Origin: Stegostoma tigrinum
Taxonomy: Eukaryota
Reading direction: 5' to 3'
Length of the DNA stretch: 64,000 nucleotides
NCBI RefSeq assembly: GCF_030684315.1
Contig: NC_081374.1
Span: 8,792,837-8,856,836 of the forward strand
Part shown: piece by piece, positions 6,715 to 63,113 of the stretch
How positions within the stretch are numbered: position 1 is the stretch's first letter
How the letters are laid out: the number at the start of each line of letters is the position of its first letter
Program-made: the position numbers and the translations under genes
The notes under the pieces: generated by a model
Database searches by the model: none
What the model saw: only the letters and a program-made list of their open reading frames with translations
What the model was told of the DNA's origin: nothing

Positions 6715-8020
6715 ACATAGAACATAGAACATTACAGCACAGTACAGGCCCTTTGGCCCTCGATGTTGTGCCGACCTGTCATACCGATCTCAAGTCCATC
6801 TAACCTACACTATTCCATGTACGGCCATATGCTTATCCAATGGCGACTTAAATATACCTAAAGTTGGTGAATCTACTATCGTTGCAGGTAGTTCCATTCC
6901 CTTACTACTCTCTGAGTAAAGAAACTACCTCTGACATCTGTCCTATATCCTTCACCCCTCAATTTAAAGCTATGCCCCCTCGTGCTGCCGTCACCATGCA
7001 AGGAAAAAGGCTCTCCCCATCCACCCTATCTAACCCTCTGATTATTTTACATGTTTCAATTAAGTCACCTCTCAACCTTCTTCTCTCTAATGAAAACAGC
7101 TTCAAGTCCCTCAGCCTTTCCTCGTAAGACCTTCCCTCCATACCAGGCAACATCCTAGTAAAGGGGTAATGGGAGCTGCAGATGCTGGAGAATTCTAAGA
7201 TAATAAAATGTGAGGCTGGATGAACACAGCAGGCCAAGCAGCATCTCAGGAGCACAAAAGCTGACGTTTCGGGCCTAGACCCTTCATCAGAGAGGATCTG
7301 ATGAAGGGTCTAGGCCCAAAACGTCAGCTTTTGTGCTCCTGAGATGCTGCTTGGCCTGCTGTGTTCATCCAGCCTCACATTTTATTATCAACATCCTAGT
7401 AAATCTCCTCTGCACCCTTTCCAAAGCTTCCACATCCTTCTTATAATGCGGTGACCAGAACTGTACACAATACTCCAAGTGCAGCCGCACCAGAGTTTTG
7501 TACAGCTTCACCATAACCTCTTGGTTCCGGAACTCGATCCCTCTATTAATAAAAGCTAAAACACTGTATGCCTTCTTAACAGCCCTGTCAACCTGGGTGG
7601 CAACTTTCAAGGATCTGTGTACATGGACACCGAGATCTCTCTGCTCATCTACACTACTAAAAATCTTACCACTAGCCCTGTACTTTGCCTTCCAGTTACT
7701 CCTACCAAAGTGCATCACCTCACACTTGTCTGCATTAAACTCCATTTGCCACCTCTCAGCCCAGCTCTGCAGCTTATCTATGTCTCTCTGCAACCTACAG
7801 CATCCTTCGTCACTATCCACAACTCCACCGACCTTAGTGTCGTCTGCAAATTTACTAACCCATCCTTCTACGCCCTCATCCAGGTCATTTATAAAAATGA
7901 CAAACAGCAGTGGACCCAACACCGACCCTTGCGGTACACCACTAGTAACTGGTCTCCAGGATGAACATTTCCCATCAACTACCACCCTCTGTGATCTTTC
8001 AGCAAGCCAATTTCCGATGC
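6715..8020 (-). mobile_element. Young 5'-truncated CR1 LINE (RT C-half plus 3' UTR)
   Basis: Open 238-aa ORF with [28 protein letters not shown]; (gttctat)n tail; interrupted at 7163-7388. Confidence 0.93.
7163..7388. mobile_element. Palindromic Penelope-derived element with hammerhead cores, 15-bp TSD
   Basis: ~92-bp inverted arms (7199-7290 / 7298-7389); CTGATGA-AGGGTCTAGGCCC-GAAAC-GTC core; caacatcctagtaaa duplicated at 7148-7162 and 7389-7403. Confidence 0.85.
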
Positions 8021-8449
8021 AATCCAATTCTAAAGTGATGTTGTTTTGATTTTTTTTTCCCAAAGTTCCCAAAGAGTGCAATGGCTTATAAAACAGTAAT
8101 TCTTGCTACTAGAATTCAAGCAAATTAGCTCCAACACTGAAAGCACCTCAAAAAAGGAGCAACACTTACAGCCATGATTTTTTTTCCTGTCTTCCATCTG
8201 GGATTACCCAGAATCCTTCACAGATTTGCTAAATAAATAAACTTGTCATCCAAGGAATTTTTAGATAGCGTTCAGAGGCACCTTATACAATGCAATGAGA
8301 CCATCATATCAAAGAAGTTAATGAGTTATTATTGGGTTTTCCTTCACAGAACACACCTACGTCAATGTGTAAGTTAAACCACGGGTAAATGCCAGAAATT
8401 TGGTCATGTTCTTTCAACAAGTTAACTTGCAAGATGAACATGTAAGAGG

Positions 8450-8935
8450 AGAGACAAAAATTGCTGGAAAAAACTTAGTAGGTCTGGCAGCATCTGTGGA
8501 AAGAAATCAGAGTCTAGTGACCCTTCTTCAGAACTGATGGCACCTAGGAAAATGTTTTTATGCAGGAGACAGATTTGGGGGGGCTGCTGGACTACGTAAG
8601 TAATAACTGATAGATGGGGATAATGCCCAAATAGAGAGCAAAACAGTTGGACAGACAAAAGAATGGATAACGATTTGGCTGGGATAATGAATGGCTGCTA
8701 ATGGGGACTATTAGTGGCTGACAATGGGTTGTGCGCAATAGCAGATCATGAGATAACAAGGCCTGATAATGTAGGGTTGGAGGAATGTGTGGGGAAGGTG
8801 CATAAGCTTTAATTGTTGAACCCGATATTGAGTACAGAAGACTGTAGAGTTCCCAAACTGAAAATGAGGTGCTGTTCTTCCAGTTTGTGCTGAGCTTCAC
8901 TGGAGCACTGCAGGAAGCCTGAAATGGTGTCAGGC
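8450..8935 (-). mobile_element. Penelope-like element 3' end: GIY-YIG endonuclease C-terminus, 3' UTR and degenerate hammerhead
   Basis: Minus strand reads GFLQCSSEAQHKLEEQHLIFSLGTLQSSVLNIGFNN*, typical of vertebrate Penelope ORF ends; downstream ctgaagaagggtcactagac core. Confidence 0.8.
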
Positions 8936-9084
8936 TTTGTCAGATGCTCTCTTTGATCTCAAGCTCTGAACTCACAACTGGACTGCCAAGGCTGAACATA
9001 CTGGACATTCTTGGCAGTCTCTCAGATGCTGTCATCCAGAGGAAGCGTCTGTGTTTCCTATGCCATAGAGTTGGCAATAATCTT

Positions 9085-9400
9085 AGAGAGAACCCTAGGC
9101 TGATATTCAGGAAACTTGGGTTTGAATCCCACCATAGTAAATGATGAAATTTAATTCAACTAAAAAATCCTGGATTTAAAATTAAGCCTATTGCTGACCA
9201 TATAAACTGTACTGATTGAGATAAAACCCATTAGGTTCATTAATTTTCTTTAGGTTCTTACCTGGTCTAGTCTATACGGGACAAAAACAATGTGACTAAC
9301 TCCTAACTGCCCTCTGAAATGGCTTGGCAAACTACTTAATTCAAGGGCAGATAAAGAGGGGTAACAGTGCCTTGCAGTGATGCCAATATCCTATGAATGC
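9085..9400 (+). mobile_element. Old tRNA-derived SINE (same family as 22570-22915)
   Basis: B-box gggtttgaatcccacc; shared core aaacccattaggttcattaat...taactgccctctg. Confidence 0.6.
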
Positions 9401-9575
9401 AAGTGTAGAAAGGGAGCCCTACAGGATGTGTGTTACACCACAGACCTCAATGTATCAGGGATTGATATTATGGTTAGTGAATATGCTAGGTTGTTAGGTA
9501 GAGACATTGATGAGTTCTCAATATGAAGCTGTTAATCAGGCAGCTGCAGAGAGGCTAAGCACGTTCCATAATGAC

Positions 9576-9864
9576 TAGATTCCCTACAGTGTGGAAACAT
9601 ACCCTTCGGCCCAACAAGTCTACACCACCCCTTGCAGCATCCCACCCAGACCCATCCTCCTATAACCCACACACCCCTGAACACTACGGGCAATTTAGCA
9701 TGGCCGATCCACCTAGCCTGCACATCTTTGGACTGTGGGAGGAAACCGACGCAGACACGGGGAGTACGTGCAAACTCCGCACAGACAGTCGCCCGAGGCT
9801 GGAACCGAACCCGCATTCCTGGTGCCGTGAGGCTGCAGTGCTAACCACTGAGCCACCGTGCTGC
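9576..9864 (-). mobile_element. HE1-type SINE
   Basis: Same head and tail as 5691-6008. Confidence 0.88.
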
Positions 9865-10496
9865 CAGTGATGGCATCACTGTCTACATCAGACAACCAAT
9901 GTGACATTACTCTACCTCTTTAGTTGTCATGTTAGCTGAGAATGAAGGGTGCTGATACTTTGCATCATGGGCCAGATGGGTTTGGGTTAGATCTGGCTAT
10001 CTTGACATAATATTTTCAAGTAAGGATAAATTCCCCATTTTTTATGCATGCATGGAGAACAAAAAATTCCAACAAACTTTATTTAATGTTACATTTTAAA
10101 GGCTAAGAGAGTCTCTCAACTATTTCAGATGGTGATCTTGATGTTTAAGGTAGCTAGCAGACAGCTTACAGCATAGGTCCTTGTGGTACTGGCTTACTGC
10201 ACCTTCTTTATCCCTCCAATTACCCTGAAATAATTCATTCCTGATCCAGCTTTGTCGCTGTACGGAAGTGAACTCAGTTCCAAGCCTGTTATTTGCATGA
10301 CCAAATTGGAAGAGAATCCATTCTCTTAACCCTCAGTTTATGCGTACTGTTTGTGGATAAGGAAGAAATGAAGTGCAAATGTGTGTTCAGTTTGGTGATA
10401 GTAATTTTAAAAAAAATCATTATTCTTTCTCAGTCCAATATTAATGCCAAGTTATCCCGAAATGGGGCTCTTCAAAACTTGTGTCAGTAATGTCAG

Positions 10497-10634
10497 AGAT
10501 AGTAGGAACCACAGATACTGGAGAGTCTGAGATAGCAACATGTAGAGCTGGATAACACAGCAGGCCAAGCAGCCTCCCTGCTCCTCTGATGCTGCTTGGT
10601 CTGCTGCGTTCATCCAGCTCTACACCTTGTTATC
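10497..10634. mobile_element. Palindromic Penelope-derived element, centre deleted, 13-bp TSD
   Basis: tcagtaatgtcag at 10484-10496 and 10635-10647; inverted arms. Confidence 0.8.
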
Positions 10635-10859
10635 TCAGTAATGTCAGTGTTGAGAAAAGGTTCACTTGGCAAAATTTGCACTTGGTGTTAATTTTAGCTG
10701 CATCCCTGGTTAAGGGTAACAATGGCTCGGAACAGAGTAACATTGTTTTTACCTTCACGTTGACCCCACAACCTGTCTTAGTTCCAATCTCAGAAAAGTA
10801 TAACCTGTTTTAAAAAGCTGACATCTCCATGCTCAACACCAATGAATCTTTGTGGCCTG

Positions 10860-11823: not shown

Positions 11824-11868
11824 CTTTCAGCACAGCAGCAAGCGGGGTAATTTGGGTGGAGGGGACAA
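11824..11868 (-). CDS. NFASC: Alternative Ig6-FNIII-1 linker exon, 45 nt (VVPSTQITPLAAVLK)
   Basis: cttttacctccacag acceptor, GTAATC donor; symmetric phase 1; resembles the mammalian NFASC 15-aa linker (ADQATPTNRLAALPK, recalled from memory). Confidence 0.88.
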
Positions 11869-12436: not shown

Positions 12437-12758
12437 AATAGAATCATAGACCACAGAATCCCTACAGTGTGGAAGCAGGCCCTTAAGCCCAACAAGTCCA
12501 CACCAACACTTGAAGCATCCCACGCAGACCCATCCCGCTAATCTACGCAACCCTAAACAGGACAGGCAATTTAGCATGGCCAATCCTCCTAGCCTGCACA
12601 TCTTTGGACTGTGGGAGGAAACTGGAGCACCCGGAGGAAACCCACACAGACACGGGGAGAATGTGCAAACTCCACACAGACAATTGACCGAGGGTGGAAT
12701 CAAACCTGGGTCCCTGGTGCTGTGAGGCTGCAGTGCTAACCACTGAGCCACCGTGCCA
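12437..12758 (-). mobile_element. HE1-type SINE
   Basis: Family head and tail. Confidence 0.88.
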
Positions 12759-12769
12759 CTGAGGCAGCC

Positions 12770-14750
12770 TAGGCTTTTCACAATGTTCCCACAACACACT
12801 CTCCTCAGACTTGAAAGAATGGTAGGGCTTAAGCTTGAGGTCTGTTGGCCTTGATTCTGGTTTGTGGATCAGATCTCCACTGGAGGATGTTTCATCCCTT
12901 GGATATCCTCCGTGGATAATGTTGTTTCCTGGTAGCCCCAGTCTTTGATCCATTACTTTATCTGAAAGATCTTTAAACTGCTGCACTTTTTTCTGAAGAG
13001 AAATTCTTCCTTGCTGACTCAGGTAGCCACTGTATAACAGTATGAGGGGGCATTTAATCTCAAGCATATCTGCAATTGAAAACTATCGCCCTTGTTGAAT
13101 GAAGTTATTTCTTCATTGCTGTAGCCTGAATTTCTGAAAGAGGCAGTTGTTATTTTGATTTGAATAGGTATTCTTTCTTTGGCAGTTGCCTCGATTTTAA
13201 GATCAGGCAATTTATTCTTTTTGAAGATGTCCTGAATCTATGAATATTTATCTGTTTTCCATAGAGACTGACAACACTACGTAATTGTAGATTTCACAAC
13301 AAGTAGGTTTAAGACTTTTCACCTCCATCGAAATCTTTGGCTACTACTTGGCTGACTGAGCTCTGGTAGCACTCCTCGCAATTCCTGAGGGTTCTCTTTC
13401 CAAGAAAACTTCCCACAGGTAAGCTGGAATAACTAGCTTTCCGGCAAGATTTAGAAAGCCATCTATAATTGTGAAATGCTCAAAGTATGTATTCTTAGTC
13501 AACTTTCTGGATTGTTGGCGTGTCCAGTGAAGTTTCACTAGTTTGGTACTGGGTATAGAGAGAGAGTGCAAATTATGTAGGCATCTTCAGCTCTCTCACT
13601 TTCCTTGTGTTGTGACATAATGTGTACCTTATCTGTGATTTTGACAGTTTTTTTCAGCTGCACCACCGTCTGATCTTTGTACGCTGTAACTTCCGATTCT
13701 TCGGTGATGGGATCTGGTCTGACAGGTTAGTCACATTCGTAGATGTATCATCTTAAAACATAACAGGATGTCCAGTGACATCTGTGAAACCTGAGTTGTG
13801 GGATCTCAGATTCCTCCTCCTGGTTATCTGATTCAAAGGGGATACCCTTGATCATATTGACCTGTTCATGTGCGTAGCCTTTCCCTTCACTGGAGCTTTG
13901 TGAACAAGCACAATCTCTCTTGCTAGTTCTTCGCATGATATTTATTTATTATTTTATCCGTAAAGTTGTTTTAAATCAATGGCATTTCAATACCATTTGC
14001 AATCTGTTGTTTTCTCAGCATGTCTTCCTGCATTCATCAATGCTGATTTCGGTTTTGTTTGCTGAAGCTTGTTAGACTCTCGTCACAGCAACATGTCAGT
14101 AACTTCTTTGCTAATTCTTTTTAAAAATCTGTGTTACCATAATAATGTATGAAATTCTTCAATAAAGATTTAAACAATATTAACTTGTTGTTCTGCAGTG
14201 ATTTGCTCCTTTCAAACTTATAAATTCTGTTTCACAGCAATTCTGTCTGTCCATGGTTTTCCATCTTATTAAAGGTTTTCTTGTTACTTTACAGGGAAGC
14301 TGGATAGTTTACTGCTTTTAACAGTCCAGAATACAGCATACTTCCTCCTGCATTTCTGAAGAAGGGTCCCAAACCTAAGCGTCAGCTTTCCTGCTCCTCT
14401 GATGCTGTCTGGCCTTCTGTGTTCATCCAGCTCCATGCTGTGTTATCTCTACAATTCCTCCTGCATACTGCATTTAAAATTAAGTTCTTTTGGTAGTGCT
14501 TTTTTTAAATAAATTTTTGTAATAAAATTGTGGCTTAATTATTGAATAAATCTTTTTTAAGTCTTAAGTTTCTTCGGTATTGTCTTCTTGAGACTGTTTT
14601 GGCTAAATTCTGAGGTTTTCCCGATTCTGCATCTCCAGCACTGATTACTTTCCCAGCGTTTTCACTGTCCTTTGAAGTTGTGTCTTGTGGACACTATTCA
14701 CAGTAGCAGGATGGCTTGTATTTTTACCAAGGGGCTGTGTTATTATGGTT
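12770..14750 (-). mobile_element. Possible highly decayed Gypsy-like LTR retrotransposon gag-pro-RT relic
   Basis: Weak motifs in the expected order: CHN..KV knuckle-like (~13610), KLVK/LDT protease-like (~13530), KGDSFQLQICLRLN resembling the RT start KxDGSLRLCxDxRxLN (~13070). Confidence 0.4.
14354..14454 (+). mobile_element. Single-arm Penelope-derived element with degenerate hammerhead, 12-bp TSD
   Basis: ctgaagaagggtcccaaacctaagcgtc; ttcctcctgcat at 14342-14353 and 14455-14466. Confidence 0.75.
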
Positions 14751-15737: not shown

Positions 15738-15884
15738 CTGAAATCAAAGGTAGTTTTAAATAACTCTTCGCTTTTCTTTGCCTTTCCTCCCATTTTACCC
15801 CCTCTCTCCATTTGGGAGCTACTGATCAATGCTGGTGAGGTACTGCCCTTCATTAATGAGACACTGGAATATCCTGATGAACAA

Positions 15885-16455
15885 CTAGCCCATGTTGGTG
15901 AGTGACTGGCCCACTGTTATTAAGGGAATGGCCCATGTTAGTGAGGGACTGATCCATTGTTAGTGACGGACTGGCCCATGTTAGTGAGGGACTGGCCCAT
16001 GTTAGTGAGGGACTGGCCCACTGTTAGTGAGGGACTGGCCCAGTGTTAGTGAGGGAATGGCCCGTGTTAGTGAGGGACTGACCTATTGTTAATGAGGGAA
16101 TGGCCCATGTTATTGAGGGGCTGGCCTATTGTTAATGAGGGAATGGCCCATGTTAGTGAGGGACTGGCCTACTGTTAATGAGGGAATGGCCCATGTTAGT
16201 GAGGGACTGGCCTATTGTTGATGAGGGAATGGCCCATGTTAGTGAGGGACTGGCCTATTATTAATGAGGGAACGGCCCATGTTAGTGAGGGACTGGCTTA
16301 TTGTTAGTGAGGGACTGGCCTATTGTTAGTAAGGGACTGGGCCATTGTCAGTGAAGGAATGGCCCATATTAGTGCGGGACTGGCCTATTGTTAATGAGGG
16401 AATGGCCCATGTTAATCAGGAATTGGTTCATGTTAATGAGGGAGTGGTCTATGCT
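15885..16455. repeat. Minisatellite, about 26 units of 21/22 bp (ggcccatgttagtgagggact), partly a 43-bp higher-order dimer
   Basis: Directly visible tandem array; alternating ggcccatgttagtgagggact and ggcctattgttaatgagggaat units. Confidence 0.95.
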
Positions 16456-18484: not shown

Positions 18485-18959
18485 CTGTGAACAAAGAAGA
18501 TTCTATCAGTTGCAAAGAGGTACTAAAATACTAAAGTCACCATGGTCCCACTGGACTGCTCTATCATTAGACAGTCATCAAACCTCAAGGTCAGTGCAGA
18601 GGTCGAGAAGAAGAGTCCCTCGTGTTAATATCAGCTGGTATAGAAATTGGATCCACACTGTTGGGGTTATGCTGCAATGCAAACCATCAGGCGAACTAAC
18701 TTTCTTCTCAAAATGCTAATAAATAGCAGAGTCTTTTTGCCAGAGGCAATACAGACATCATTCACTGGTACCAATGGCCTTCACAACCCCTGAACTGTAT
18801 CTCAAGTGTAATTACTGATAGCTTGCAGGCAACATGCACACAGCTAAGTCCTTTAAGTGATCATGAGTGAAATATAAATTAAAATGGTTTGGATTTCATT
18901 GTAAACAGGACAATTGCCTATGCTTCTTTGGAAAACAAAGCTACCTTAGGAATCTTCTA

Positions 18960-19164
18960 AAGATGGTAAGAACTGCAGATGCTGGAGTCAGAGGTAACAC
19001 AGTGTGGAGCTGGAGGAACACAGCAGGCCAGGCAGTATCAGAGCAGCAGGAAAGTTGACATTTCGGATCGGGGCCCTTCTTCCGAAATGACCCAAAATGT
19101 CAACTTTCCTGCTCTTCTGATGCTGCCTAGCCTGCTGTGTCCGTCCAGATCCACACCGTGTTAT
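18960..19164. mobile_element. Palindromic Penelope-derived element, ~15-bp diverged TSD
   Basis: cttaggaatcttcta (18945-18959) vs cttagaaaccttcta (19165-19179); degenerate hammerhead at centre. Confidence 0.78.
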
Positions 19165-19364
19165 CTTAGAAACCTTCTATATATCCCACTTTAACATTTC
19201 ACCTGATTGACAGCATCTCCGCTTGTGAAGCACTGACAAAAGATTTAGCCAAGTTTATATGCTCAAAGTTATGCAGTGGGAGAAGACTGAGAGGCATCCA
19301 CGGAGACAAGGCTGACATGAGGACCTGGTAGACAGGTGATAAAATTATCATAACCATGTTCCTT

Positions 19365-20277: not shown

Positions 20278-20379
20278 AGTGTTCTGAGGAAGTGTCACCG
20301 GACCCAAAATGTTAACTCTTTTTTCTCCTCCACAGATGCTGCCAGACCTGCTGAGCTTTTCCAGAAACTTTGTTTTTGT
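20278..20379 (+). mobile_element. Penelope-derived short element (second subfamily), probable 11-bp TSD
   Basis: ctgaggaagtgtcaccggacccaaaatgtt degenerate core; ctctcatttac at 20261-20271 and 20380-20390. Confidence 0.7.
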
Positions 20380-28380: not shown

Positions 28381-28523
28381 AGATAACAAGGCATGATGAA
28401 GGGTCTAGGCACGAAACATCAGCCTTCCTGCTCCTATGATGCTGCTTGGCCTGCTGTGTTCATCCAGCTCTACACCTTGTTATCTTACATTCTCCAGCAT
28501 CTGCAGTTCCTACTATCTCTGAA
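28381..28523 (+). mobile_element. Penelope-derived hammerhead element with short inverted 5' arm, 15-bp TSD
   Basis: acaacacctacccag at 28366-28380 and 28524-28538; tgatgaagggtctaggcacgaaacatc. Confidence 0.82.
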
Positions 28524-28629: not shown

Positions 28630-30160
28630 TGTGTACATGAACATGAATGTATGATTACTGAGAATACCCAGAACACTGAGAGAGGGAAGGGAGGGAGTTG
28701 CTGGGGTCTTGCGAGAAATCTTTGTATCTCTCCTGTAGCCAGTGGGGGTCCCAGAGGATTTGAGGATAAATAGTGTTGTTCCTTTGTTTAAGAAGAGTGG
28801 CAGGCACAATCCAGCTAATTACAGGCCAGTAAGCCTTATATCAGTGGTAGGGAATTTATTGGAGAGGATTTTTTGAGACAGGATTTATTCCAATGGGAAA
28901 TAAGTGGGCGTATTAGCGAGAGGCAATATGGTTTTGTGAAGGGGAAGATCGTGCCTCATTAACTTGGTTGAGTATTTGAGTAAGTGACAAAGATGATCAA
29001 TGAGGGTGGGGCAGTGAATATTGTCTACATGGACTTCAGTAAAGCCTTTGACAAGGTCCCTCGTGGCAGACTGATACAGAAGGTAAAGTCACATGGGATG
29101 AGAGGTGAGCTTGCAAGATGGAAAAAAACTGGCTCAGTCATAGAAGACAGAGGGTAGCAGTGGAAGGGTGCGTTTCTGAATGGAGGGCTGTGGCTAGTGG
29201 CATTCCTCAGGGATCAGTGTTGGGACCTTTGCTATTTCTAATATATATAAGTGATTTGAAGGAAAATGTAACTGGTCTGATTAGTAAGTTTGCTGATGAC
29301 ACAAAGTTTGGTGGAATTGCAGATAGGGATGAGGGCTGGTTAAATGATACTGCTGGATATAGACTGCCTAGTGATTTGGACAGAGAAGAGGCAGATGGAA
29401 TTTAAACCGGAAAATGAGAGAGAATGTATTTTGGAAGGTTTTATCCAGATGGAATATATACAGTAAATGGCAGAACCCTTAAGAGTATTGATAGGCAGAG
29501 GGATCTGGGTGTACAGATACACAGGTCACTGAAAGTGGCAACACAGGCAGAGAAGGTAGTCAAGAAGGCATATGGCATGCTTGCCTTCAGCTGCCGGGGT
29601 GCTGAGATTAAAATTTGGCGGGTAATGTTGCAGCTTTACAGAACCTTAGTTAGGCTGCATTTGGAATATTGTGATCAATTCTGGTTGCCACATTACCAGA
29701 AGGATGTGGTGGCTACGGAGAGGGTACAAAAAAGATTTACCAGGATGTTGCCCGGCATGGAGGGCATTAGCTATAAGGAGAGGTTGGAGAAACTTGAGTT
29801 GTTCTCAGTGGAATGACAAAGGTTGAGGGGTGACCTGATTGAGGTCTGCAAGATTACGAAGGGCACGGGCAGACTGGACAGTCAGAAGCTTTCTCCCGGG
29901 GTGGAACAGTTATGGGTTTAGGCAATGGGCAATGTTTAAAGGTGATGTATGAGGCAAGTTTTTTACACAGAGGGTGGTGGGTGCCTGGAACCCGCTGCCG
30001 GGGGAGGCAGTGGAAGCAGATACAATAGTGACGTTTAAAGGCAGTCTTGACAAATACATGATTCGGATGGGAATAGGGGGTTTTAGTTGTGATGGCCAGT
30101 GCAGGCTTGGAGGGCCGAAGGGCCTGTTCCTGTGCTGTAATTCTCTTTGTTCTACGTGCT
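28630..30160 (+). mobile_element. 5'-truncated CR1 LINE (RT to 3' end)
   Basis: [27 protein letters not shown]; LHLEYCDQFWLPHYQKD. Confidence 0.92.
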
Positions 30161-30250
30161 TCAGACACATGCACATACACAAGCCTGTTTCAGCAATCAT
30201 AGGCATGAAGTTCATGGGTTGGTACAAAAAACTAGTTTGCCAATATCTTA

Positions 30251-30466
30251 GATAATGGGACCTGCAGATGCTGGAGAATTCCAAGATAATAAAATGTGAG
30301 GCTGGATGAACACAGCAGGCCAAGCAGCATCTCAGGAGCACAAAAGCTGATGTTTCGGGCCTAGACCCTTCATCAGGATGAAGGGTCTAGGCCCGAAACG
30401 TCAGCTTTTGTGCTCCTGAGATGCTGCTTGGCCTGCTGTGTTCATCCAGCCTCACATTTTATTATC
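30251..30466. mobile_element. Palindromic Penelope-derived hammerhead element, 12-bp TSD
   Basis: gccaatatctta at 30239-30250 and 30467-30478; near-perfect ~90-bp inverted arms. Confidence 0.86.
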
Positions 30467-33004: not shown

Positions 33005-33870
33005 AGCAGCACAGTGGTATAGTGGTTAGCACTGCTGCCTCACAGCAAGAGGGAGCTGGGTTCAGTTTTATCCTCAGGTGACTGACTGTGTGGAATTTTC
33101 ACATTTTCCCTGTGTCTGCGTGGGTTTCCTTCAGGTGGTCTGGTTTCCTCCCACAGTTCAAAGATGTGCAGGTTCAGCAGATTGGCCATGCTAAGTTATC
33201 TATTTGCTCCACATCTGGAGTATTGTGTCCAGTTCTGGTCACCTCATTACAGGAAAGATGTGGAAGCATTAGAAAAGGTGCAGAGGAGATTTACCAGGAT
33301 GTTGCCTGGAATGGAGGGAAGGTCTTACAAGGAAAGGTTGAGAGAGCTAGCGCTTTTCTCTTTAGAATGACGATGCATGAGAGGTGGCTTGATAGAGGCG
33401 TACAAATTGATCAGCGGTATAGATAAGATAGATAGCCAGGGACTTTGTCCGAGAGTCAAGGTAGCTTTTACGAGGCGACATAGTTTTAAAGTGAAAGGAG
33501 GTAGATATTAGGGAGATGTCAGAGGTAGGTTCTTTACTCAGACGGAGGTAGTGAGTCGGCCTCATTCGGGGCATTTATGCAGCTATTAGATAGGCATATG
33601 GATGATAGCATAAGGTAGGGGTGGAGGTTAGATAAACCTTAGGTTCAGGGTAAAAGTTCGGCACAATATCGTGGGCTGAAGGGCCGGTACTGTCCTGTAC
33701 AGTTCTATGTTCTATCTATTTTATCCAGGGATGTGCACGTACGGTGGGATAGGCATTGGAACTGCAGGGATGGGGTAGATACTTGGGCCTGAGTGGGGTG
33801 CTCTTAGTGGGTCAGCATGGACTTGATGAGTCAATTGTCCTGCTCCCACAGCACAGGGGTTGTATGATTA
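33005..33870 (+). mobile_element. HE1-type SINE interrupted by a CR1 3' fragment (~33206-33715)
   Basis: SINE body resumes at ccagggatgtgc (33725); tatctattt flanks the CR1 piece (HLEYCVQFWSPHYRKD). Confidence 0.82.
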
Positions 33871-34639
33871 TAGAGAAGAGGTTTCCTCTGGAGAATCTAG
33901 AAGTAGGGGTCGCTGCATAAAAATCAGTGGTTGCCCACTTAAAACAGATGAGTCTGAGAATTTGTTTTTCTCTCAGAGGGTCACAAGTCTTTGGAAATAG
34001 TAAGAACTGCATATGCCAGAGTCAGAGAGAGCACAGTGTGGAGCTGCTGGAGGAACACAGCAGGCCAGGCAGCATCCTGCTCCTCTGAGAGCTGTGAAAA
34101 CTGATTAGGTCTGGATGCAGGGAGAAACAGAGTTAATGCCTTGACTTCAACAACTTTTTGTAAGTGCCTCAGTTTCTCCAGCATTTTCTTACACCATCCA
34201 TCCCACCCTCAACATATCCGGAAGAGCTTCAAAGCCAATTACCTGCTTTTGAATTGTCACGGCTATTGTAATTCATGCAAATTCTTTCAAAAGGGGTCAA
34301 ATAAGAGTGGTCCTGAGGGTGGAAACCATGGTGATACTTCATTCCGCCCAACCCACAACACCCCCCCACCCCCCCAATTACTCTGTAGCTACAGCCCACT
34401 TTCACTGCCTGACAGAAAAAGCAACATCATCACAGTCAGTGGTTGAAGAAACTATAAGGAAATTATGCGTGTCACAATGTTCCTGTAGCATTACTGAGAT
34501 ACTGCGTTACACAGGGAACAGTAACCAAGGAGCACTTGCACCGAGTTACAGTATTAGTATGTTAGTGAGTTATTGGGCTAACAGTGAGCAGATCCACATA
34601 AATTGTACAATTAAATAAAATCTTTAAACATTTAACTAG

Positions 34640-40264: not shown

Positions 40265-40760
40265 CATAGAAACAGAAAAGGCTGGAGAATCTCAGCAGGT
40301 CTGGTGCCATCTGTGGTGGGAGAAACAAAGTTAATGTTTTGGGTCCAATGGCTTTGCTTCAGGATTTCCAGACAAAGGACTGGAAGCATTAACTCTATCT
40401 CTCTCTGCAAATCACAGAATCCCTACAGTGTGGAAGCAGGCCATCTGGCCCATCAAGTCCTCACCAACCCCCAGACCCAACCCCCTACCTTATCCCTGCA
40501 TTTCCCATGGCCAATCCACCTAACCTGCACATCTTTGGACTGTGGGAGGAAACCGGAGCACCCGGAGGAAACCCGCGCAGACACAGGGAGAAAGTGCAAA
40601 CCCCATAGTCACCCGAGGCTGGAATTGAGCCGGGGTCCCTGATGCTGAGAGGCAGCAGGGCTAACCACTGAGCCACCATGTTGACAGACACTGCCAGACC
40701 TCCTGAGTTCCTCCAGCATTTTCAGGTTTTATGTCAGATTTTCATAATCAACAGAACTTT
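40265..40760. mobile_element. Palindromic Penelope-derived element (second subfamily) with a nested HE1 SINE (40411-40683, -)
   Basis: gctggagaatctcagcaggtctgg arm and inverse ccagacctcctgagttcctccagc arm on either side of the SINE. Confidence 0.75.
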
Positions 40761-41032: not shown

Positions 41033-41280
41033 CAGATAAAACAGTGTAGAGTTAAATGAACACAGCAGGCCACGCAGCATCAGAGGAGCAGGAAAGCTGA
41101 TGTTTCAGGTCGGAACCCTTCTTCGGAAATCATCTTAAAAAATCATTTCTGAGGATGGCTCCCGACCTGAAACATCAACTTTCCTGCTCCTCTGATGCTG
41201 CCTGGCCTGCTGTGTTCATCCAACTCCACACCGTGTTAGTGTTATCTCTGACTCCAGCAACTGCAGTGCTTGCTATCTCG
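41033..41280. mobile_element. Palindromic Penelope-derived hammerhead element, 10-bp TSD
   Basis: aaaacagtta at 41023-41032 and 41281-41290; two degenerate divergent cores. Confidence 0.8.
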
Positions 41281-44404: not shown

Positions 44405-45000
44405 TAGAATTTAGAACATTACAGCACAGTGCAGGCCCTTCGGCCCTCGATGTTGTGCCGACCTGTCATACTGATCTGAAGCCCATCTAACCTACACTAT
44501 TCCATGTATGTCATTATGCTTATCCAATGACGACTTAAATGTACCTAAAGTTGGCGAAGCGTTCCATTCCCTTACTACTCTCTGAGTAAAGAAACTACCT
44601 CTGACATCTGTCCTATATCTTTCACCCCTCAATTTAAAGCTATGCCCCCTCGTGCTCGCTGGCACCATCCAAGGAAAAAGGCTCTCCCTATCCACCCTAT
44701 CTAACCCTCTGATTATTTTATATGTTTCAATTAAGTCACCTCTCAACCTTCTTCTCTCTAATGAAAACCGCCTCAAGTCCCTCAGCCTTTCCTCATAAGA
44801 CCTTCCCTCCATACCAGGCAACATCCTAGTAAATCTCCTCTGTACCCTTTCCAAAGCTTCCACATCCTTCTTATAATGCGGTTACCAGAACTGTACTCAA
44901 TGCTCCAAGTGCGGCCACACCAGAGTTTTGTACAGTTTCACCATAACGTCTTGGTTCCGGAGCTCGATCCCTCCATTAATAAAAGCTACAACACTGTATG
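44405..45000 (-). mobile_element. Young CR1 3' fragment (same subfamily as 6715-8020)
   Basis: Near-identical to 6720-7570; ORF EALERVQRRFTRMLPGMEGRSYEERL. Confidence 0.92.
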
Positions 45001-46744
45001 TAACAGTTCTGAGGTTTTGTGCACGCTCCTCGGTTTCGGAAGATACTGCCACACACTGACCTAGGAGGTCCGTGCATTGAAATAATAATGAGTGTATTAA
45101 TTAATATCTGACAAGCTCTGCCTGAATATATTCTAGAATTGAACATCTACAGATCCTTGGGGGAGAGAAAAATCAAGAAATGACTTCAGAGCCTTACAAC
45201 CAGTGAAGCACTGTCGAAACGTAGTCACTAGTGTCATGCAGGAAACTCACAACAACTTTGTGCACAGCAAGCAGCCAAAAATGGCTATACTGTAATAGTC
45301 CATCCTTTTGATGTTGATTTTTAAATAAATGCCATGTTCCAAAGATTCACAATCAAGCTGCCACTATAATGAAACAAAACAGAAGCTGGAGAAACAAGGA
45401 GGAATCTGGGCTGGCTCAGAATCTCAAAGTTCCGTGCAGTTCCGATGTCACATGCCTTTAATGTTTCCAAAGCCACCTTAAATAAATCCTGAATGTACAA
45501 TCCAAACCCTTTCTACTCAATATCCTCTTGTTCAATGTTAATTTTTGATTGGCTTTAGTTTCTTTTCCCATGCTAGATCCTCTCCTATGGATGGCAAGAG
45601 AGACAAATGACCAACTCTTCAGGATTGGCTGGAATCTCTGGGATCTAAAAATTAAACACTTAGCCATCATTTCAAGTAAATCACATGAAGGAAAATCATT
45701 TTGGAAAAGTATGTTTTCTTTCTATTTGCTTTGAACATTTTTCTTTCTTTTAATTCTCTCACAGGCTGTGAGGTTCGCTGAAGACAAATTAACACCTTAC
45801 TGAGATGTGGAGAAATATTTTCGCTCAGAGAATGGGGAGCCTGTGTGATTCTCTGCCACAGAAAGCGGTTGAGGTCAAAACATTGAATGTTTTCAAAATG
45901 GAGTTAGATTTAGTTCTTCAGGCTAAAGAGATCAAAGGGCATAAGGAGAAAACGGGAACAGTCATAATCACATTGAATGATAGAACAGGTTTGAATGGCT
46001 GGATGGCCTACTCCTGCTCCTATTTCCTCTGCTTTCCCCAGTAGCTTCTCAAATGACATCAAATCAGCTGGTGTAAACAAGATTTTTCTCATCTCTTTGA
46101 CAGTACTAGTCACTACCAGGTCCATAACACCATAAGAAACAGGAAGAGGATTAGGTGTTCAGGGCCTCAAGCTTTCTCTGTCATTATTAGGACAATGGCT
46201 GATTGGCAGTCCTCATGTCCACTTTCCTGCCCTTTTCCCGTACCCCTTGAATTCCTGATGGATTACGGTTCTATCTATCTCACTGCTAAATATACACAAG
46301 TACTCTGCTCCCTCAAGGTGTCTATGACAAGGTGCTCCAAAGTCGCTCAACTCTCTGAGAGAAGAAATTCCTCCTCAGCTCGGTCTTAAATTGGCCACTT
46401 AATTCTGAGACTTTGCCCTCTGGTCCCAGACCATCCCATGAAGCAACATTTACCCTGTCAAGCCCCTTCAGAATTCTGTATGTTTCAATGAAGTGACTAC
46501 TCCCTCACTCATCCTGACCATCCAGGGCTGACTGGCTTGCATTTTTGACCAATCCTTTTGGGGATCGACAAATTAATAAAATCCAAACTTGGGGGTTGTC
46601 CTACATGCTGCTCTTACATTCACACATCTGTAGCAGTGGCGTCCCAAGAGTTCAAATCCCACCAAGAGAATCTGTAAAAATGATTTATAGTAATTTCAAG
46701 GGCTGGCAGCAAAAAAAAACATGATTAATGAAATAAGCTGTTTC

Positions 46745-46937
46745 AGAGATAGTAGGAACTGCAGATGCTGGAGAATGTGAGATAACAAGGTGCAGAGCTG
46801 GATGAACACAGCAGGCCAAGCAGCATCAGCTTGGCTGAGCTTTCCTGCTCCTATGATGCTACTTGGCCTGCTGTGTTCATCCAGCTCTACACCTTGTTAT
46901 CTCAGGTTCTCCAGCATCTGCAGTTCCTACTATCTCT
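46745..46937. mobile_element. Fully symmetric Penelope-derived palindrome lacking the hammerhead centre, ~17-bp TSD
   Basis: attaatgaaataagctg (46724-46740) vs attaatgtaataagctg (46939-46955); ~85-bp inverted arms. Confidence 0.82.
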
Positions 46938-47364
46938 AATTAATGTAATAAGCTGCTTGGTTTACTGATGCCTTTCAGAGAAAGTTCCTAGCCTTCTAGT
47001 TAGTGAGCATAATATGTAACTCAGTAATCTGACCTGGTACTTTTGTTATTCATCCATAGGATGTGGGTGTCAATAACAAAGCCTGGAATATTGGCCATCC
47101 TCACTATCATGAAGACAATGAAGATGAGTTACTTCCTTGAACCGCTGCAGTCCATGTCATTTATTGAAAGCACTCTCAACACAGTTTGGACTGGGCTGTA
47201 AATATTGCATTGTCCACATTCAAAACATAGAGATATACAACCCCATTACTTCAAAGGTTTGAGACCAATAGCCCTGTTCTGCTCCACAACACTGTTTGTC
47301 TCCTTATGCCTCTCAAATGCCACTGACTACACAGGCTACATGCATCCTCTGAATTATCAGAATA

Positions 47365-47465
47365 TACACAGAGAATGTTGGAGAAACTCAGCAGATCTGG
47401 CAGCATCCGCGGAGCGAGAAACAGGGTTAACATTTTGGGCCTGTATGACTCTTCTTCAGAACTAA
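47365..47465 (-). mobile_element. Penelope-derived short element (second subfamily)
   Basis: Minus strand ttctgaagaagagtcatacaggcccaaaatgttaac..gatgctgccagatctgctgag. Confidence 0.7.
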
Positions 47466-55629: not shown

Positions 55630-56560
55630 AACAACTTGTTTAGAGATGTTATTACACACATCTGCAGCAGCGAGGATTTAAAGCTGGGCCTACTGGCTCA
55701 GAGATAAGGACACTAGCTCTGCACCAGACAGTCCCTCCTGTTCATTAACTTTTATTTTACATATCCAGGTGTACTCTTGCACACAACTCCGTATGTTTTA
55801 TTTCTCCATGACCAAATCACCTGTGGTTTTATTTTCATCTATTACCCACCACTACCTTCGGTCTGCCTCCCCCTCTCTCCCTATTTATTCCAGAACCCTC
55901 TCCCCATCCCCCTCTCTGATGAAGGGTCCATGCCCGAAACATCAGCTTTTGTGCTCCTGAGATGCTGCTTGGCCTGCTGTGTTCATCCAGCTTCACACTT
56001 TATTAACTAGTAAAACACTTATGTTTTTCAATTTATTAAGTTACACACAAATCCCATTAAGGGCAGTGCAGACCCCGCAAAAGTGAGGAAGAGGGAGGGA
56101 GTTCAAACAAAATGGAATTGGAAGGGGAAAGACCTGCATTGTTATAGCACCTTTCTGTTCGACATAGTTTCTCAATCAACCTGTTCCGACATACCTCTGG
56201 AGTAGGTAGGACTTGAAACTAGGCCTCCTGGTTCAGAGGTAGGAACACCGCCATTGTGTCGCAAAAGCCCTCCTGCTTTCACTTGTTTATTTTCTTAAAA
56301 CCATTGGCCCTCCTTCTACAAAGACACCTTCTGTCCCGCAAGATTCAACATCTCCTGCAACCCTCTCCCACCATCCCCAACTGCTGGCTGAGCCCCGGCG
56401 AACTGCTCAGATTCCTTTGCTCTTTTTCTGCCAGTGCTTTTTGAGACATTTTCTAACTAATCCATTCAGAGAAATCATTAAACACCTCTACAGCAGGCGG
56501 GACTTGAACTCAGGGCTCCTAGCTCAAAGGCAGGGACACTACACAGTTCCACAAGAGGCC
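55630..56560 (-). repeat. Three short (~100 bp) tRNA-derived SINE copies (55630-55735, 56170-56270, 56450-56560)
   Basis: Shared aacctgttcagagatgttattacacac..cttgaac..ggcctcctgg..agagg.agggacact motif; also at 40785-40880. Confidence 0.65.
55840..56004 (+). mobile_element. Penelope 3' end, single arm with intact-looking hammerhead core and upstream pyrimidine-rich UTR
   Basis: ctctCTGATGAagggtccatgcccGAAAcatc at 55912-55943. Confidence 0.8.
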
Positions 56561-57961: not shown

Positions 57962-58276
57962 AAGTGTGGAAGCAGGAGTTTCAGCCCTCTGAAGAGCATT
58001 CCACCCAGACCCACCCTATTCCTGCAACCTTGTATTTCCCATGGCTACTCCACCCAGCCTGCACATCCCTGGACACCATGGCTCATTTTGCATGGCCAAT
58101 CCGCCTAACCTGCACACCTATGAACAGTGGGAAGAAACCAAAGCAGCTGGCAGAAACCCACACGACATGGGGAGAATGTGCAAACTCCACATAGACGATC
58201 GCCCGAGGCTGGAATCAAGCCCAGGTCGGTGGTGCTCTGAGGCAGCAGTGCTAAGCACTGCATTATGGTACCGCCC
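57962..58276 (-). mobile_element. HE1-type SINE
   Basis: Family body. Confidence 0.8.
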
Positions 58277-59828
58277 CCAGCCTGATTAAATGCTCCTCAC
58301 CACAAAATCCAGCAAAGTGAAGGGCGTTAGATGACATCTCTTCTTTCGGACCAATGTATCAGAACTGGGAAAGATTTGAAAAAGCAAGGGAAATGTAATC
58401 TTGCATTTTCCCTCCTCATTTCAGATTTCCAGCCTCTGTGGAAACTCAGGGCTCGTTGTCTTTTCTCTCTGTTGAGTCGGCAACTCAGAACAACCCCTGG
58501 CCAAACCAGTGAACCAGATGTGGATCTTGGAAAGGTCTTTAAAAGAGATTAAAAAAAAACTTCCCTTCCCAGACTGTCATTCATGCCTCAGGATTCCTAA
58601 AGAGCTTTATAGCTGATGTAACACTTCCAAAGTATAGTCAGTGTTATATTGTAGGAAATGTGGCAATTGACTTCTGCAAAGCAAGTTCCCACAAATATCA
58701 GTGTGAAAATGGCCAGATCATCTGTTTTAATGAGGTCGACTGAGCAAAAAGTATTAACCTGGATATTGGGATAGTGCTAGCGATGACTCACCTACATTCC
58801 TTTGAAATAAAGATGTGGATCTTTACATTTCGTGGAAACAGGGAAAGTGGGAGAGATTTAAGGAGAGAACTCCAGAGGAGTTGTGGATGGTTAGAAAAGA
58901 ACAATTAATTCAAGAGGGCCCAGTTAGCTTAAGGAAAAAGACAGACGAGAGGACTTATGCCAAGGCAGGGTCAGAGAGTTCAGGGATGTGTTGGCAAGGT
59001 GAAAGATTTCATGTTCAGGGAGACAATGAAGGATTGGGCAACATTTACAGCATATCCTTGATATAGTTTAATGTTATTAAGTCTCACTTAGAGAATGTGG
59101 ACAACACAGCATGGTATCATTTGATCATGCAAGCCCATGCAAAAGCCACCATTGCCAAGGACAACATCTGCTGCTAGTTTCCTAGAATGGAGTGTGTTGA
59201 CAGGCCAATTCAGAGATCAATTTGGACGGAGAGTGGAGTGCCATATGGATGCGAATGGGCAAAGTTGCCAGATTTCTTTAATGAAAAGTGTATTCACAGG
59301 ATGCAGGTAGTCGCTGGAAAGTTCATCATTTATTGCCCAACCCTAATTGCCCTTAAACTAATTGGCTTGCTAGCCCATTTCAGAGGGCAGTCAAGAGTCA
59401 AACACATTGCTGTTCGTCTGGAGTCAAACGTAGGTCAGACCAGGTAAGGATGGAAGATTTCTTTCCATACGGTGAGCCAGGGGAAATTTACAATAACAAA
59501 TGACAGTTTAATGGTCATCATTTACTGTGACTAGCTTCTTAGTTCCAGATTTATTCACAAAATGTATTATTTTCTTTTTAAATTCCAGCAGTTCCTGTGA
59601 TGGAATTTGAGCCCCTCCCTTATCCATAACATTAAACCTGGGATTTTGGATTGTTGGACAGGTAGCTTCACAATGACACTGCGATCTTGCCCGTTTAGTC
59701 TTACTGCTGTTGGCTCCTTTTTCTAAACTGAATTCAAATTGTCAAACATCCAAAGTGAGATTGAAGTTCACCTTCTCTGGATTATCAATCCAGAAACATC
59801 ATCAAAACAAAAGTCCCACCCTGATACA

Positions 59829-60046
59829 AGATAATAAAGTGTGAAGCTGGATGAACACAGCAGGCCAAGCAGCATCTTAGGAGCACAAAAGCGGACGTTT
59901 CGGGCTTAGACCCTTCTTTGATGAAGGGTCTAGGCCCGAAACATCAGCTTTTGTGCTCCTGAGATGCTGCTTGGCCTGCTGTGTTCATCCAGCCCCACAC
60001 TTGGTTATCTTGGATTCTCCAGCATCTGCAGTTCCCATTATCTCTC
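59829..60046. mobile_element. Palindromic Penelope-derived hammerhead element, ~15-bp diverged TSD
   Basis: tcccaccctgataca (59814-59828) vs tcccatcctaataca (60047-60061). Confidence 0.83.
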
Positions 60047-60111
60047 TCCCATCCTAATACAGTCTGTACCAAAGAGAGTCACTATTTCAAACTGTAACAG
60101 GTTCATCTTAC

Positions 60112-61029: not shown

Positions 61030-61818
61030 AAATGTATGGGAATGATTTGGAGGAAGGAAGTGTAGTGTACTGTACTGTAGCCAAATTTGCAGATGACATA
61101 AAAATAGGTGGAAAGGCAAGTTGCCAGAGGAACAGAGGGATCTTGGTGTGCAGATACATAGATCCCTTAAAATGGCCACCCAAGTGGACAGGGTTGTTAA
61201 GAAAGCATATGGTGTTTTGGCTTTCATTAACAGGGGGATTGAGTTTAAGAGTCGTGAGATCTTGTTGCAGCTCTATAAAACTTTGGTTAGACCGCACTTG
61301 GAATACTGCGTCCAGTTCTGGTCACCCTATTATAGGAAAGATGTGGATGCTTTGGAGACGGTTCAGAGGAGGTTTACCAGGATGCTGCCTGGACTGGAGG
61401 GCTTATCTTATGAAGAGAGGTTGACTGAGCTCGGTCTCTTTTCATTGGAGAAAAGGAGGAGGAGAGGGGACCTAATTGAGGTATACAAGATAATGAGAGG
61501 CATAGATAGAGTTGATAGCCAGAGACTATTTCCCAGGGCAGAAATGGCTAACATGAGGGGTTATAGTTTTAAGCTGGTTGGAGGAAAGTATAGAGGGGAT
61601 GTCAGAGGCGGGTTCTTCACACAGAGAGTTGTGAGAGCATGGAATGCGTTGCCAGCAGCAGTTGTGGAAGCAAGGTCATTGGGGTCATTTAAGACACTGC
61701 TGGACATGCATATGGTCACAGAAATTTGAGGGTGCATACATGAGGATCAATGGTCGGCACAACATTGTGGGCTGAAGGGCCTGTTCTGTGCTGTACTGTT
61801 CTATGTTCTATGTTCTAT
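61030..61818 (+). mobile_element. CR1 3' fragment with open ORF2 C-terminus (202 aa) and (gttctat)n tail
   Basis: QRDLGVQIHRSLK..RPHLEYCVQFWSPYYRKD..WNALP. Confidence 0.93.
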
Positions 61819-61989
61819 GAATGCAAACAGTTTTCAGAGAGATCCGAAACAACTGCTGATGCTGTAGATCAGAAACAAAACCAGAAATTTCTGGAAAAGC
61901 TCAGCAGGCCTGGCAGCATCTGTGGAGAGGAATCACAGAGTTCATGTTTCACATTGAGTCATTCTTTCTTAGGTTCTGGAGGTCACAGT

Positions 61990-62785
61990 GAATATTGACA
62001 GGTTAAGGAACAGGGCAAGAAGTTGGCAAATGAAGTAGAATATAAATTTATTCATTTTGGAAGGGAGAACAAAAATCACAGAGCCTTATTTAGATGGAGA
62101 AAACCTGCAGAAAGCTGCAACGCAAAGGGACTTGGGGGGGGATTTGTGCATGAAAAGGCAATCAGGAAGGAAATTGGAATATTGGCCTTTATTTCAAGAG
62201 GGTTAGAGTTTCAGAGTAGGAAAGACTTATTGGAACTTGAAAAGATGCTGGTGAGACTACATCTAGAGCACTGTGCACAGTTTTAGTCCTAAGAAAAGGT
62301 ATTATTTCATTGGAGGAGTTCAGAGAAAGTTCACTTGGATGATTCTTGGTATGGAAGCTGGTACTCTACTCTCTGGAGTTTAAAAGAATGAGAGGTGATC
62401 TCATTGAAATGTACAGGATTCTTAAAGGGCTTTATGGGGTAAATGCTGACAGGGTGTTTCCCCTCCAGGGAGAGTCTGGGACCACAGGGCACAGTCTCAG
62501 AATAAAGTTGCACCATTTTATGACTGAGATGAGGAGGTATTTCTTCTCTCAGACAGTTCAGAGTCTTTCGAACACTTTGCCACAGAGAACTCTGGGGCAG
62601 AGTCCTTGCGTACATTTAGGGCTGAGGAAGATAGATTCTCAATGATTCGGGGAATCAAGGGTGACAGGGAAAAGCAGGGAAGTGGGCATGAGGAATGTCG
62701 GTCAGCTACGTTTTTATTGAATGGTGGAGCAGGCTCTAGGGGGTGAATGGCCTACTCCTTTTCCTATTTCTGATGGTCTTATGGA
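61990..62785 (+). mobile_element. Older CR1 3' fragment
   Basis: RLHLEHCAQF and FKRMRGDLIEMYRILKG remnants. Confidence 0.82.
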
Positions 62786-63029
62786 AGGTCAGTAACTAAA
62801 GGACTCAGATTTAAGGTGGAAAATGAGTGAGAAAGGTGCAATGAGGTGCTTTTTTTAGCGCAGTGAATTTTCCATCTGGAACTAACACCCTAAAAAGGTG
62901 GTGGAAGAGGATTATATAACAACACACAAACAGGAACTGGATGAGCACTTGAAAAGGAAATAATTTTCCAGTGTACAGCGAAAGACAAGGGGAGTGGCAC
63001 TGATCAGTAGCAGGTTCAAAAGGTCAGCA

Positions 63030-63113
63030 GTGGGGCTGGATGAACACAGCAGGCCAAGCAGCATCTTAGGAGCACAAAAACTGACGTTTCGAGCCTAGAC
63101 CCTTCATCAGAGA
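63030..63113 (-). mobile_element. Single-arm Penelope-derived hammerhead element
   Basis: Minus strand ctCTGATGAagggtctaggctcGAAAcgtc. Confidence 0.8.

What the first reader, a model, noticed from the sequence alone, without database searches (positions are those of the whole stretch)
7163..63113. Dispersed family of short, TSD-flanked palindromic elements built around a minimal hammerhead ribozyme
Seen: at least 11 related 85-250 bp insertions (7163, 10497, 14354, 18960, 28381, 30251, 41033, 46745, 55840, 59829, 63030). Most are flanked by 10-17 bp direct repeats, and many consist of two inverted arms. The fold-back centre repeatedly falls just 5' of CTGATGA-AGGGTCTAGGCCC-GAAAC-GTC. Established: CUGANGA / stem II / GAAA / NUH is the hammerhead catalytic core, and Penelope-like elements carry minimal type I hammerheads with almost no stem III. 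Inference: these are non-autonomous Penelope-mobilised units that look like MITEs but have variable-length retrotransposon-type TSDs, with a ribozyme core on each strand. Different centres in each copy suggest the inversion forms anew at each insertion.
Basis: partly seen in the sequence, partly recalled or inferred. Interest (0 to 1): 0.8.

Follow-up and report, generated by a model that had tools for sequence, protein, structure and literature searches.

The report
Mirror-image stumps of Penelope retrotransposon
These short palindromes are cut-short, head-to-head insertions of a Penelope-like retrotransposon's ribozyme-bearing end, a layout already known, but the places where their two halves stop may record where the element's RNA began and where its ribozyme cut it.

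Summary
The elements are 5'-truncated ends (pLTR, minimal hammerhead, 35-nt 'tail') of a Neptune/Nematis-type Penelope-like element. A full-length copy in this genome has the same layout. They are not a self-propagating non-autonomous family: 58 of 58 sampled palindromes have different junctions, and arms run from under 50 bp to over 1 kb. The hairpin abolishes the predicted ribozyme fold on both strands. Inverted copy, tail and variable TSD are published, and the scan noted such families in two other genomes. Added here: 54 of 58 palindromes pair one arm ending near +100 with one near +64 (0 = hammerhead cut). Either arm may reach further 5' (21 vs 22), which favours priming from both target strands over simple fold-back. 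5' ends pile up at -35..-18 (peak -32, initiator-like) and at the cut site in two of three subfamilies. A cap-G signal did not replicate, and much of the cut-site peak rides on a self-complementary 4-mer. New member of a known kind, with a testable mechanistic lead.

The parts
7148..7162 (+). Left TSD of the 7163 insertion (15 bp), inside a CR1 LINE fragment
   Evidence: the paralog at 44658-45000 has the target once
7163..7295 (-). Long (tailed) arm, element positions -33 to about +99; intact hammerhead core on the - strand at 7263-7290
7297..7388 (+). Short arm, -29 to +63; core from 7298 with G12>A; predicted cut 7325/7326
7389..7403 (+). Right TSD (15 bp)
10494..10638 (.). Palindrome: long arm +17..+100 (-), short arm about 0..+64 (+); no core; 13-bp TSD 10484/10635
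14354..14449 (+). Single short-ended arm, older subfamily; 12-bp TSD 14342/14455
18958..19171 (.). Palindrome, old subfamily: long arm -33..+100 (-), short arm -14..+64 (+); weak 9-bp TSD
28381..28523 (.). 11-nt inverted stub of the short end (28381-28391) plus long arm -27..+100 (28394-28521, +); 15-bp TSD 28366/28524
30250..30466 (.). Palindrome: long arm -28..+98 (-), short arm -26..+63 (+); 12-bp TSD 30239/30467
33994..34076 (-).
41034..41280 (.). Palindrome, old subfamily: short arm -33..+64 (-), 12 extra bases, long arm -34..+100 (+); 10-bp TSD
46744..46938 (.). Palindrome with two long ends: +17..+100 (-), 10 extra bases, right arm starting exactly at the predicted cut (0..+100, +); 17-20-bp TSD
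55856..56008 (+). Single read-through arm -88..+64 with the pyrimidine-rich 3' UTR; core from 55916; candidate RNA start (-32) at 55912
59824..60045 (.). Palindrome: short arm -23..+64 (-), long arm (+) joined through a 6-nt overlap; arms differ at 4 of 5 subfamily-diagnostic sites
63030..63113 (-). Single arm -31..+52; core 63087-63110; no TSD found

Best explanation
Each element is a dead-on-arrival insertion of an autonomous Neptune/Nematis-type Penelope-like element (PLE). Shown: the parent is pLTR - one ORF (RT, CxxxxCxxC linker, GIY-YIG with CCHH) - 3' UTR - minimal hammerhead - tail; arms end 3' at two fixed sites 35 nt apart; palindromes carry one of each; TSD about 15 bp; each junction differs. 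Inferred (about 0.7): the endonuclease makes a staggered cut, both target ends prime reverse transcription inside the pLTR RNA, one at each start site, and the two cDNA 3' ends are joined head to head by microhomology or a few added bases. Inferred (about 0.55): most short arms stop because the RT runs off the RNA's 5' end, a start site at about -32, 4 nt before the hammerhead core. Inferred (about 0.5): some stop at the hammerhead cut, so some template RNA was self-cleaved in vivo. The ribozyme belongs to the parent RNA and is inert inside the palindromes.
For: Parent at G000:C2:142468350-142472912: inverted arm ending near +64, pLTR, ORF read in two adjacent stretches (561 and 552 aa, overlapping), hammerhead and tail. 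Pfam GIY-YIG E about 5e-4 and RVT_1 E 3e-6 to 9e-4, all below curated cut-offs. 54 of 58 unbiased pairs are long+short, 1 long+long, 3 unclassifiable. TSD score >=8 in 55 of 76 pairs vs 7 of 300 mismatched flanks. Long arm reaches further 5' in 21, short arm in 22, about equal in 13 (holds at 5 and 10 nt thresholds). Arms are both long or both short (7/2/49, p 1e-7). Arms usually share a haplotype (33 of 37 vs 14.8 by chance), yet 3 of 55 young pairs differ at 4 of 5 diagnostic sites. 50 of 88 arms reaching -18 stop by -35, vs 13 of 38 over the next 165 nt. Genome counts of apparent starts: -31 4991, -32 8457, -33 3870, -34 2662. Cut site: 2753 at 0 vs 663, 557 and 477 at -1, +1 and +2; 185 vs 56 in a subfamily lacking the self-complementary 4-mer. 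Frangieh 2024 (PMC11167929): two internal RT start sites bound the tail, and both target strands are nicked and extended in vitro.
Against: No RNA data for this element. The extra G before -32 (69 of the first 100 listed, vs 31 and 37 at neighbours; hand tallies) did not replicate in the old subfamily (G 28, A 46, T 26), where the excess base instead fits a palindromic junction, so a cap is not shown. 63 of the first 100 matches at position 0 fit joins through the self-complementary AGCT; if the 18 GA/GG-preceded ones are also such joins, the rest is no higher than neighbours (hand tally). The oldest subfamily shows no cut-site peak (159 vs 158). About 42 of the first 100 matches look like 1-nt indels in read-through copies (about 2.6-fold excess remains, one control position only). 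Helix I is only 2 bp (third pair 0 of 66). Frangieh found cleavage unnecessary in vitro and no RNA-seq ends at the cut site. High arm concordance also fits copying of one arm from the other.
Confidence: 0.72

Rival explanations
1. Self-priming fold-back: one cDNA (or an antisense RNA, as proposed by Arkhipova 2013) snaps back and copies itself to make the second arm.
For: Arms share a haplotype in 33 of 37 young pairs; 50 rare alleles are shared by both arms; arm lengths correlate. Many junctions overlap by 1-7 nt. PMC3846280 interprets junction palindromes this way.
Against: A copy of a tail-less cDNA cannot gain the tail, so the tailed arm should be the template and reach further 5'. It does so in only 21 of 56 pairs; the other arm does in 22. 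Three pairs differ at 4 of 5 diagnostic sites. Many junctions hold extra bases. The antisense-RNA version does not explain 3' ends at two fixed sites, though this test does not exclude it.
Confidence: 0.17
2. A non-autonomous palindromic family (MITE-like or retrozyme-like) that is transcribed and re-mobilised as a unit.
For: Roughly 1.6-1.8 x 10^5 short palindromes by extrapolation (48 in 0.864 Mb). Some centres recur exactly genome-wide (595 centred on AGCT). Non-autonomous PLE derivatives exist (PMC8557442; tandem deletion units L087, L128, L133 here).
Against: 58 of 58 sampled junctions are distinct. Arm sizes form a continuum up to the full element. TSD length varies 8-18. Recurrent centres fall on self-complementary 4-mers.
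Confidence: 0.06
3. Same insertion route, but the stops at -35..-18 and 0 come from RT pausing at the protein-bound hammerhead or C-run and from repair preferring certain microhomologies, not from RNA ends.
For: The base before -32 tracks the palindromic junction in both subfamilies. AGCT joins dominate the position-0 peak. No peak in the oldest subfamily. 60,595 exact copies read through -37.
Against: Stops lie on the far side of stem II, not at its entry. Both arms stop or read through together. AGCT (595) exceeds the equally stable ACGT 5 nt further 5' (39), and GGCC (202) and CTAG (108), which lie nearer the -32 end. An excess remains in the AGCC subfamily.
Confidence: 0.35

Closest known systems
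Complex insertions of canonical EN+ PLEs: inverted 5'-truncated copy plus 30-40 bp tail (PMC3846280, PMC8557442, PMC2377424; passages read)
   Same: Head-to-head inverted copy, tail at one end, variable TSD, partial tandem pLTR.
   Different: Most insertions here are only 120-250 bp and number about 10^5. The one-long-one-short rule (54 of 58) and the junction hot spots are quantified here; I did not find them in the passages read.
Poseidon PAc of Anolis (Frangieh 2024, PMC11167929; parts 1-2 of 4 read)
   Same: Two internal RT start sites bounding the tail, just 3' of the hammerhead; both target strands nicked and extended.
   Different: Different clade (Zn-finger linker present). The ORF starts after the tail, not in stem II. 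Genomic 5' ends show an excess at the cut site, where that paper saw no RNA-seq ends.
Minimal PLE hammerheads (Cervera and de la Pena 2014, PMC4209133; parts 1-2 of 4 read)
   Same: Core, extra nucleotide between 9 and 10.1, G10.1-C11.1, palindromic 15.2-16.2 with no loop 3. That paper already notes pairs 100-700 bp apart on opposite strands.
   Different: Helix I is 2 bp (as in its D. virilis variant) and stem II 4-5 bp, against 4-5 and 7-8 bp in the schistosome families.
Non-LTR retrozymes (bioRxiv 10.64898/2026.07.22.740005; part 1 and passages read)
   Same: PLE pLTR origin, type I hammerhead, non-coding.
   Different: Retrozymes are head-to-tail tandems; the palindromes are head-to-head. 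Tandem derivatives of this element exist separately (L087, L128, L133).
L1 twin priming (recalled, not from a call)
   Same: Both target strands prime and the cDNAs are joined by microhomology.
   Different: In L1 the two cDNAs copy non-overlapping parts; here both copy the same stretch, giving a palindrome.

Membership tests
Canonical EN+ PLE, Neptune/Nematis type | One ORF with RT and C-terminal GIY-YIG endonuclease bearing CCHH | tested here: met
   (Pfam hits below curated cut-offs; motifs seen in the translation)
Canonical EN+ PLE, Neptune/Nematis type | CX2-5CxxC Zn-finger linker between RT and EN | tested here: met
   criterion from PMC8557442
Canonical EN+ PLE, Neptune/Nematis type | RT phylogeny placing it in Neptune rather than Nematis | not tested
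   no reference set fetched
Canonical EN+ PLE, Neptune/Nematis type | pLTR partial tandem, inverted 5' copy, 30-40 bp tail, variable TSD | tested here: met
Minimal type I hammerhead of PLEs | Core, extra nt 9/10.1, G10.1-C11.1, palindromic 15.2-16.2 | tested here: met
   48 descriptor matches in 864 kb vs 0 in reversed sequence; other PLE families keep the core with different stems; subfamily changes fall on N7, loop II or keep pairing (U-G/U-A 134 of 139; C-G/U-G 69 of 70)
Minimal type I hammerhead of PLEs | Helix I of 4-5 bp | tested here: not met
   2 bp only; third pair 0 of 66; a 2-bp variant is described for D. virilis
Minimal type I hammerhead of PLEs | Match to Rfam hammerhead models | tested here: not met
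Minimal type I hammerhead of PLEs | Self-cleavage | not testable with these tools
   indirect only: excess of 5' ends at the cut site in 2 of 3 subfamilies
MITE | Fixed-length TSD, equal terminal arms, uniform copies | tested here: not met
Non-LTR retrozyme | Head-to-tail units, each with a complete hammerhead | tested here: not met
   window copies are inverted pairs or single arms; met only by separate loci such as L087
Self-propagating non-autonomous PLE family | Many copies of one unit sharing a junction | tested here: not met
   58 of 58 distinct in the sample; a minor such lineage is not excluded genome-wide

The most novel reading that the evidence does not exclude
The roughly 10^5 palindromes are a fossil read-out of the PLE integration intermediate. 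A protein dimer primes both target strands at two different RNA start sites, both cDNAs run off the RNA's 5' end, and the junctions map two RNA ends: a start site 4 nt before the hammerhead core, and the hammerhead cut itself. That would be genomic evidence that a minimal PLE hammerhead cleaves in vivo on RNA used for integration, and would explain inverted repeats and the one-sided tail by one mechanism.
Probability: 0.38. Interest if true: 0.72.

Novelty: new member of a known kind. Interest (0 to 1): 0.45.

Why it matters
How PLEs make tandem and inverted insertions, and whether their minimal hammerheads cut in vivo, are named as open in PMC8557442 and PMC4209133. This family gives large, nucleotide-exact statistics and two sharp predictions (RNA 5' ends at -32 and 0; one start site per target strand) that 5'-end sequencing and the existing in vitro system can test. 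In practice these elements will be mis-annotated as MITEs or microRNA hairpins (top Rfam matches were miRNA models).

Tried and rejected
Cap-derived G carried into read-through copies by an LTR-like strand transfer: rejected; G is about 23 of the first 100 at -33 and about the same at -35 (514 and 574 matches, hand tallies). Cap-G at truncated ends: strong in the young subfamily, not replicated in the old one; unproven. Two unrelated RNA templates per palindrome as the rule: rejected; arms differ at 9.5% of diagnostic sites within pairs vs 42% between pairs. Splice junction at -32: no AG in the parent and no shared upstream exon in 50 loci. Rfam: no hammerhead hit. Two planned controls did not complete and were not rerun (GGCC palindromes near +25; position +1 in the oldest subfamily). 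Literature searches for shark+Penelope+Neptune, Penelope-like+palindromic+hairpin+shark and twin priming+Penelope+inversion (listings only) showed no paper on this family; Repbase and Dfam could not be searched, so it may already be catalogued. No supplements were read; Frangieh Fig. S2 may bear on the cut-site claim. Base tallies come from the first 100 listed matches of each count, by hand.
Full report
Coordinates. Element positions count from the predicted hammerhead cut (0 = first base after GTC; core C3 = -28). The genome is 3.2 Gb in 835 contigs. That it is a shark is my recall of these repeats and the wording of earlier scan notes, not a tool result.

Observation. All 11 sites are related. 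Seven are two-arm palindromes, one has an 11-nt inverted stub, three are single arms, and a twelfth stub lies at 33994. TSDs are clear in 7 of 11, weak in 2 and absent in 2. The 7163 copy interrupts a CR1 fragment whose paralog at 44658-45000 holds the 15-bp target once. The core motif exceeds chance (16 vs 6.1), but Rfam hammerhead models do not match.

Identity. Of 30 best genomic matches, 11 that continue upstream were translated; they run into a GIY-YIG endonuclease. Further loci gave RT. All Pfam scores are below curated cut-offs. A full-length element at G000:C2:142468350-142472912 shows an inverted arm ending near +64, a partial-tandem pLTR, an ORF with RT, CxxxxCxxC linker and CCHH-type endonuclease, then 3' UTR, hammerhead and tail to +99. 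By the criteria in PMC8557442 (passages) this is Neptune/Nematis type; no tree was built.

Unbiased sample. Eighty 10-kb stretches at round coordinates plus the window (864 kb) held 222 arms, forming 58 head-to-head pairs and 106 singles. Over all 110 sources there were 77 head-to-head pairs and only 3 tail-to-tail neighbours. 3' ends cluster near +64 and +99/100. Of 58 pairs, 54 have one of each, 1 has two long ends and 3 could not be classed. TSDs scored in 55 of 76 pairs (77 less one at a locus edge) vs 7 of 300 mismatched flanks, 8-18 bp, mode 15. All 58 junctions differ. Arms run from under 50 bp to over 1 kb. The 48 short palindromes extrapolate to about 1.6-1.8 x 10^5 in the genome (41 without the window).

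What is known. An inverted 5'-truncated copy with a 30-40 bp tail at one end is the described PLE layout (PMC8557442; PMC3846280; PMC2377424; passages). Frangieh 2024 showed that the tail lies between two internal RT start sites and that both target strands are nicked and extended. Cervera 2014 described the minimal hammerheads and opposite-strand pairs. Two earlier scan notes reached the same identification in other genomes; I had it before reading them.

Ribozyme. The core has the extra nucleotide after A9, G10.1-C11.1, a 4-5 bp stem II, a loop-less ACGU and a 2-bp helix I. Among 140 arms, subfamily changes fall on N7 and loop II or keep pairing. Other PLE families in the sample keep the core with different stems (48 descriptor matches vs 0 in reversed sequence). 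Positions 3' of the core are about as conserved, so conservation alone does not single out the core. In four whole palindromes folded on both strands, stem II pairing is 0.0, and no window copy is intact on both strands. The motif is inherited from the parent, not a feature of the palindromes.

How the mirror forms. A simple fold-back needs the tailed arm to be the template and so to reach further 5'. It does in 21 pairs, the short arm in 22, and 13 are about equal (16/18 and 14/15 at wider thresholds). Among 55 young pairs (from 105 palindromes, including 28 of 50 loci picked for a -32 start), haplotypes agree in 33 of 37 classifiable pairs (14.8 by chance). Three pairs differ at 4 of 5 diagnostic sites, and diagnostic sites differ more than other sites (12% vs 2.4%). 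Junctions show overlaps or extra bases. The best fit is priming from both target strands, usually on the same RNA or RNAs from one source. This is inference; the antisense self-priming model of PMC3846280 is not excluded.

Where the arms stop. Of 88 well-matched arms reaching -18, 50 stop by -35; of 38 passing -36, only 13 stop in the next 165 nt. Both arms stop or read through together (p 1e-7). Exact genome counts peak at -32 (8457) over -31 (4991), -33 (3870) and -34 (2662), against 60,595 read-through copies; point mutants add roughly 500-600 per position. Position -32 matches a TCT-type initiator in the young subfamily and an Inr in the old one (motifs recalled). In D. virilis the start lies 46 nt before an intron that ends at helix I, so a hammerhead near the RNA's 5' end has precedent. 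The preceding base is G in 69 of the first 100 matches vs 31 and 37 at neighbours, as a copied cap would give. In the old subfamily it is G in only 28 and A in 46, which fits palindromic joining instead. The cap signal is therefore unproven, and the related strand-transfer idea failed its control.

Cut site. In the young subfamily 2753 arms start at 0 vs 663, 557 and 477 at -1, +1 and +2. Most are palindromes joined through AGCT, which number 595 against 39, 202 and 108 for three other self-complementary 4-mers nearby. A subfamily without AGCT shows 185 vs 56, about 2.6-fold after removing apparent 1-nt indels by hand. The oldest subfamily shows nothing (159 vs 158), with a background dominated by point mutants. 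This is suggestive of cleaved templates, not proof; PMC11167929 found no RNA-seq ends at its cut site.

Verdict. A real, very abundant family; a new member of a known kind. The value lies in the junction statistics as a test bed for the PLE mechanism. Interest 0.45.

Noticed in passing
L087:6756-8434 (G000:C13); also L128/L130, L133, L129: TSD-flanked inverted-plus-tandem arrays of internally deleted units (about 440-540 bp), each with a hammerhead, the tail and about 200 nt of the 5' region; each locus has a different deletion junction, four of them breaking in the same 15 nt. These are the retrozyme-like derivatives of this element.
   Followed up: partly
L134:1416-1913: Tandem in which the second unit starts exactly at the predicted cut site, joined to ORF sequence.
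   Followed up: no
window 20283-20370, 40684-40730, 47377-47421, 61872-61960: Fragments of a second, related PLE end family; a third (different stem II, same core) occurs in L047, L049, L086, L088, L104.
   Followed up: partly
window 15850-16452: Tandem array with a 21-22 bp unit, period 43.
   Followed up: no
window 6987-8105, 29418-29851, 33209-33508, 44492-45000, 61097-61729: CR1-like LINE RT fragments; SINE copies at about 5690-6005, 9577-9861, 12455-12759, 40416-40681, 58004-58271 (class names recalled).
   Followed up: no
G000, listing: About 34 of the first 100 matches have one extra base exactly at the predicted cut site in otherwise read-through copies; may be ordinary A duplication or RT crossing a nick.
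   Followed up: no
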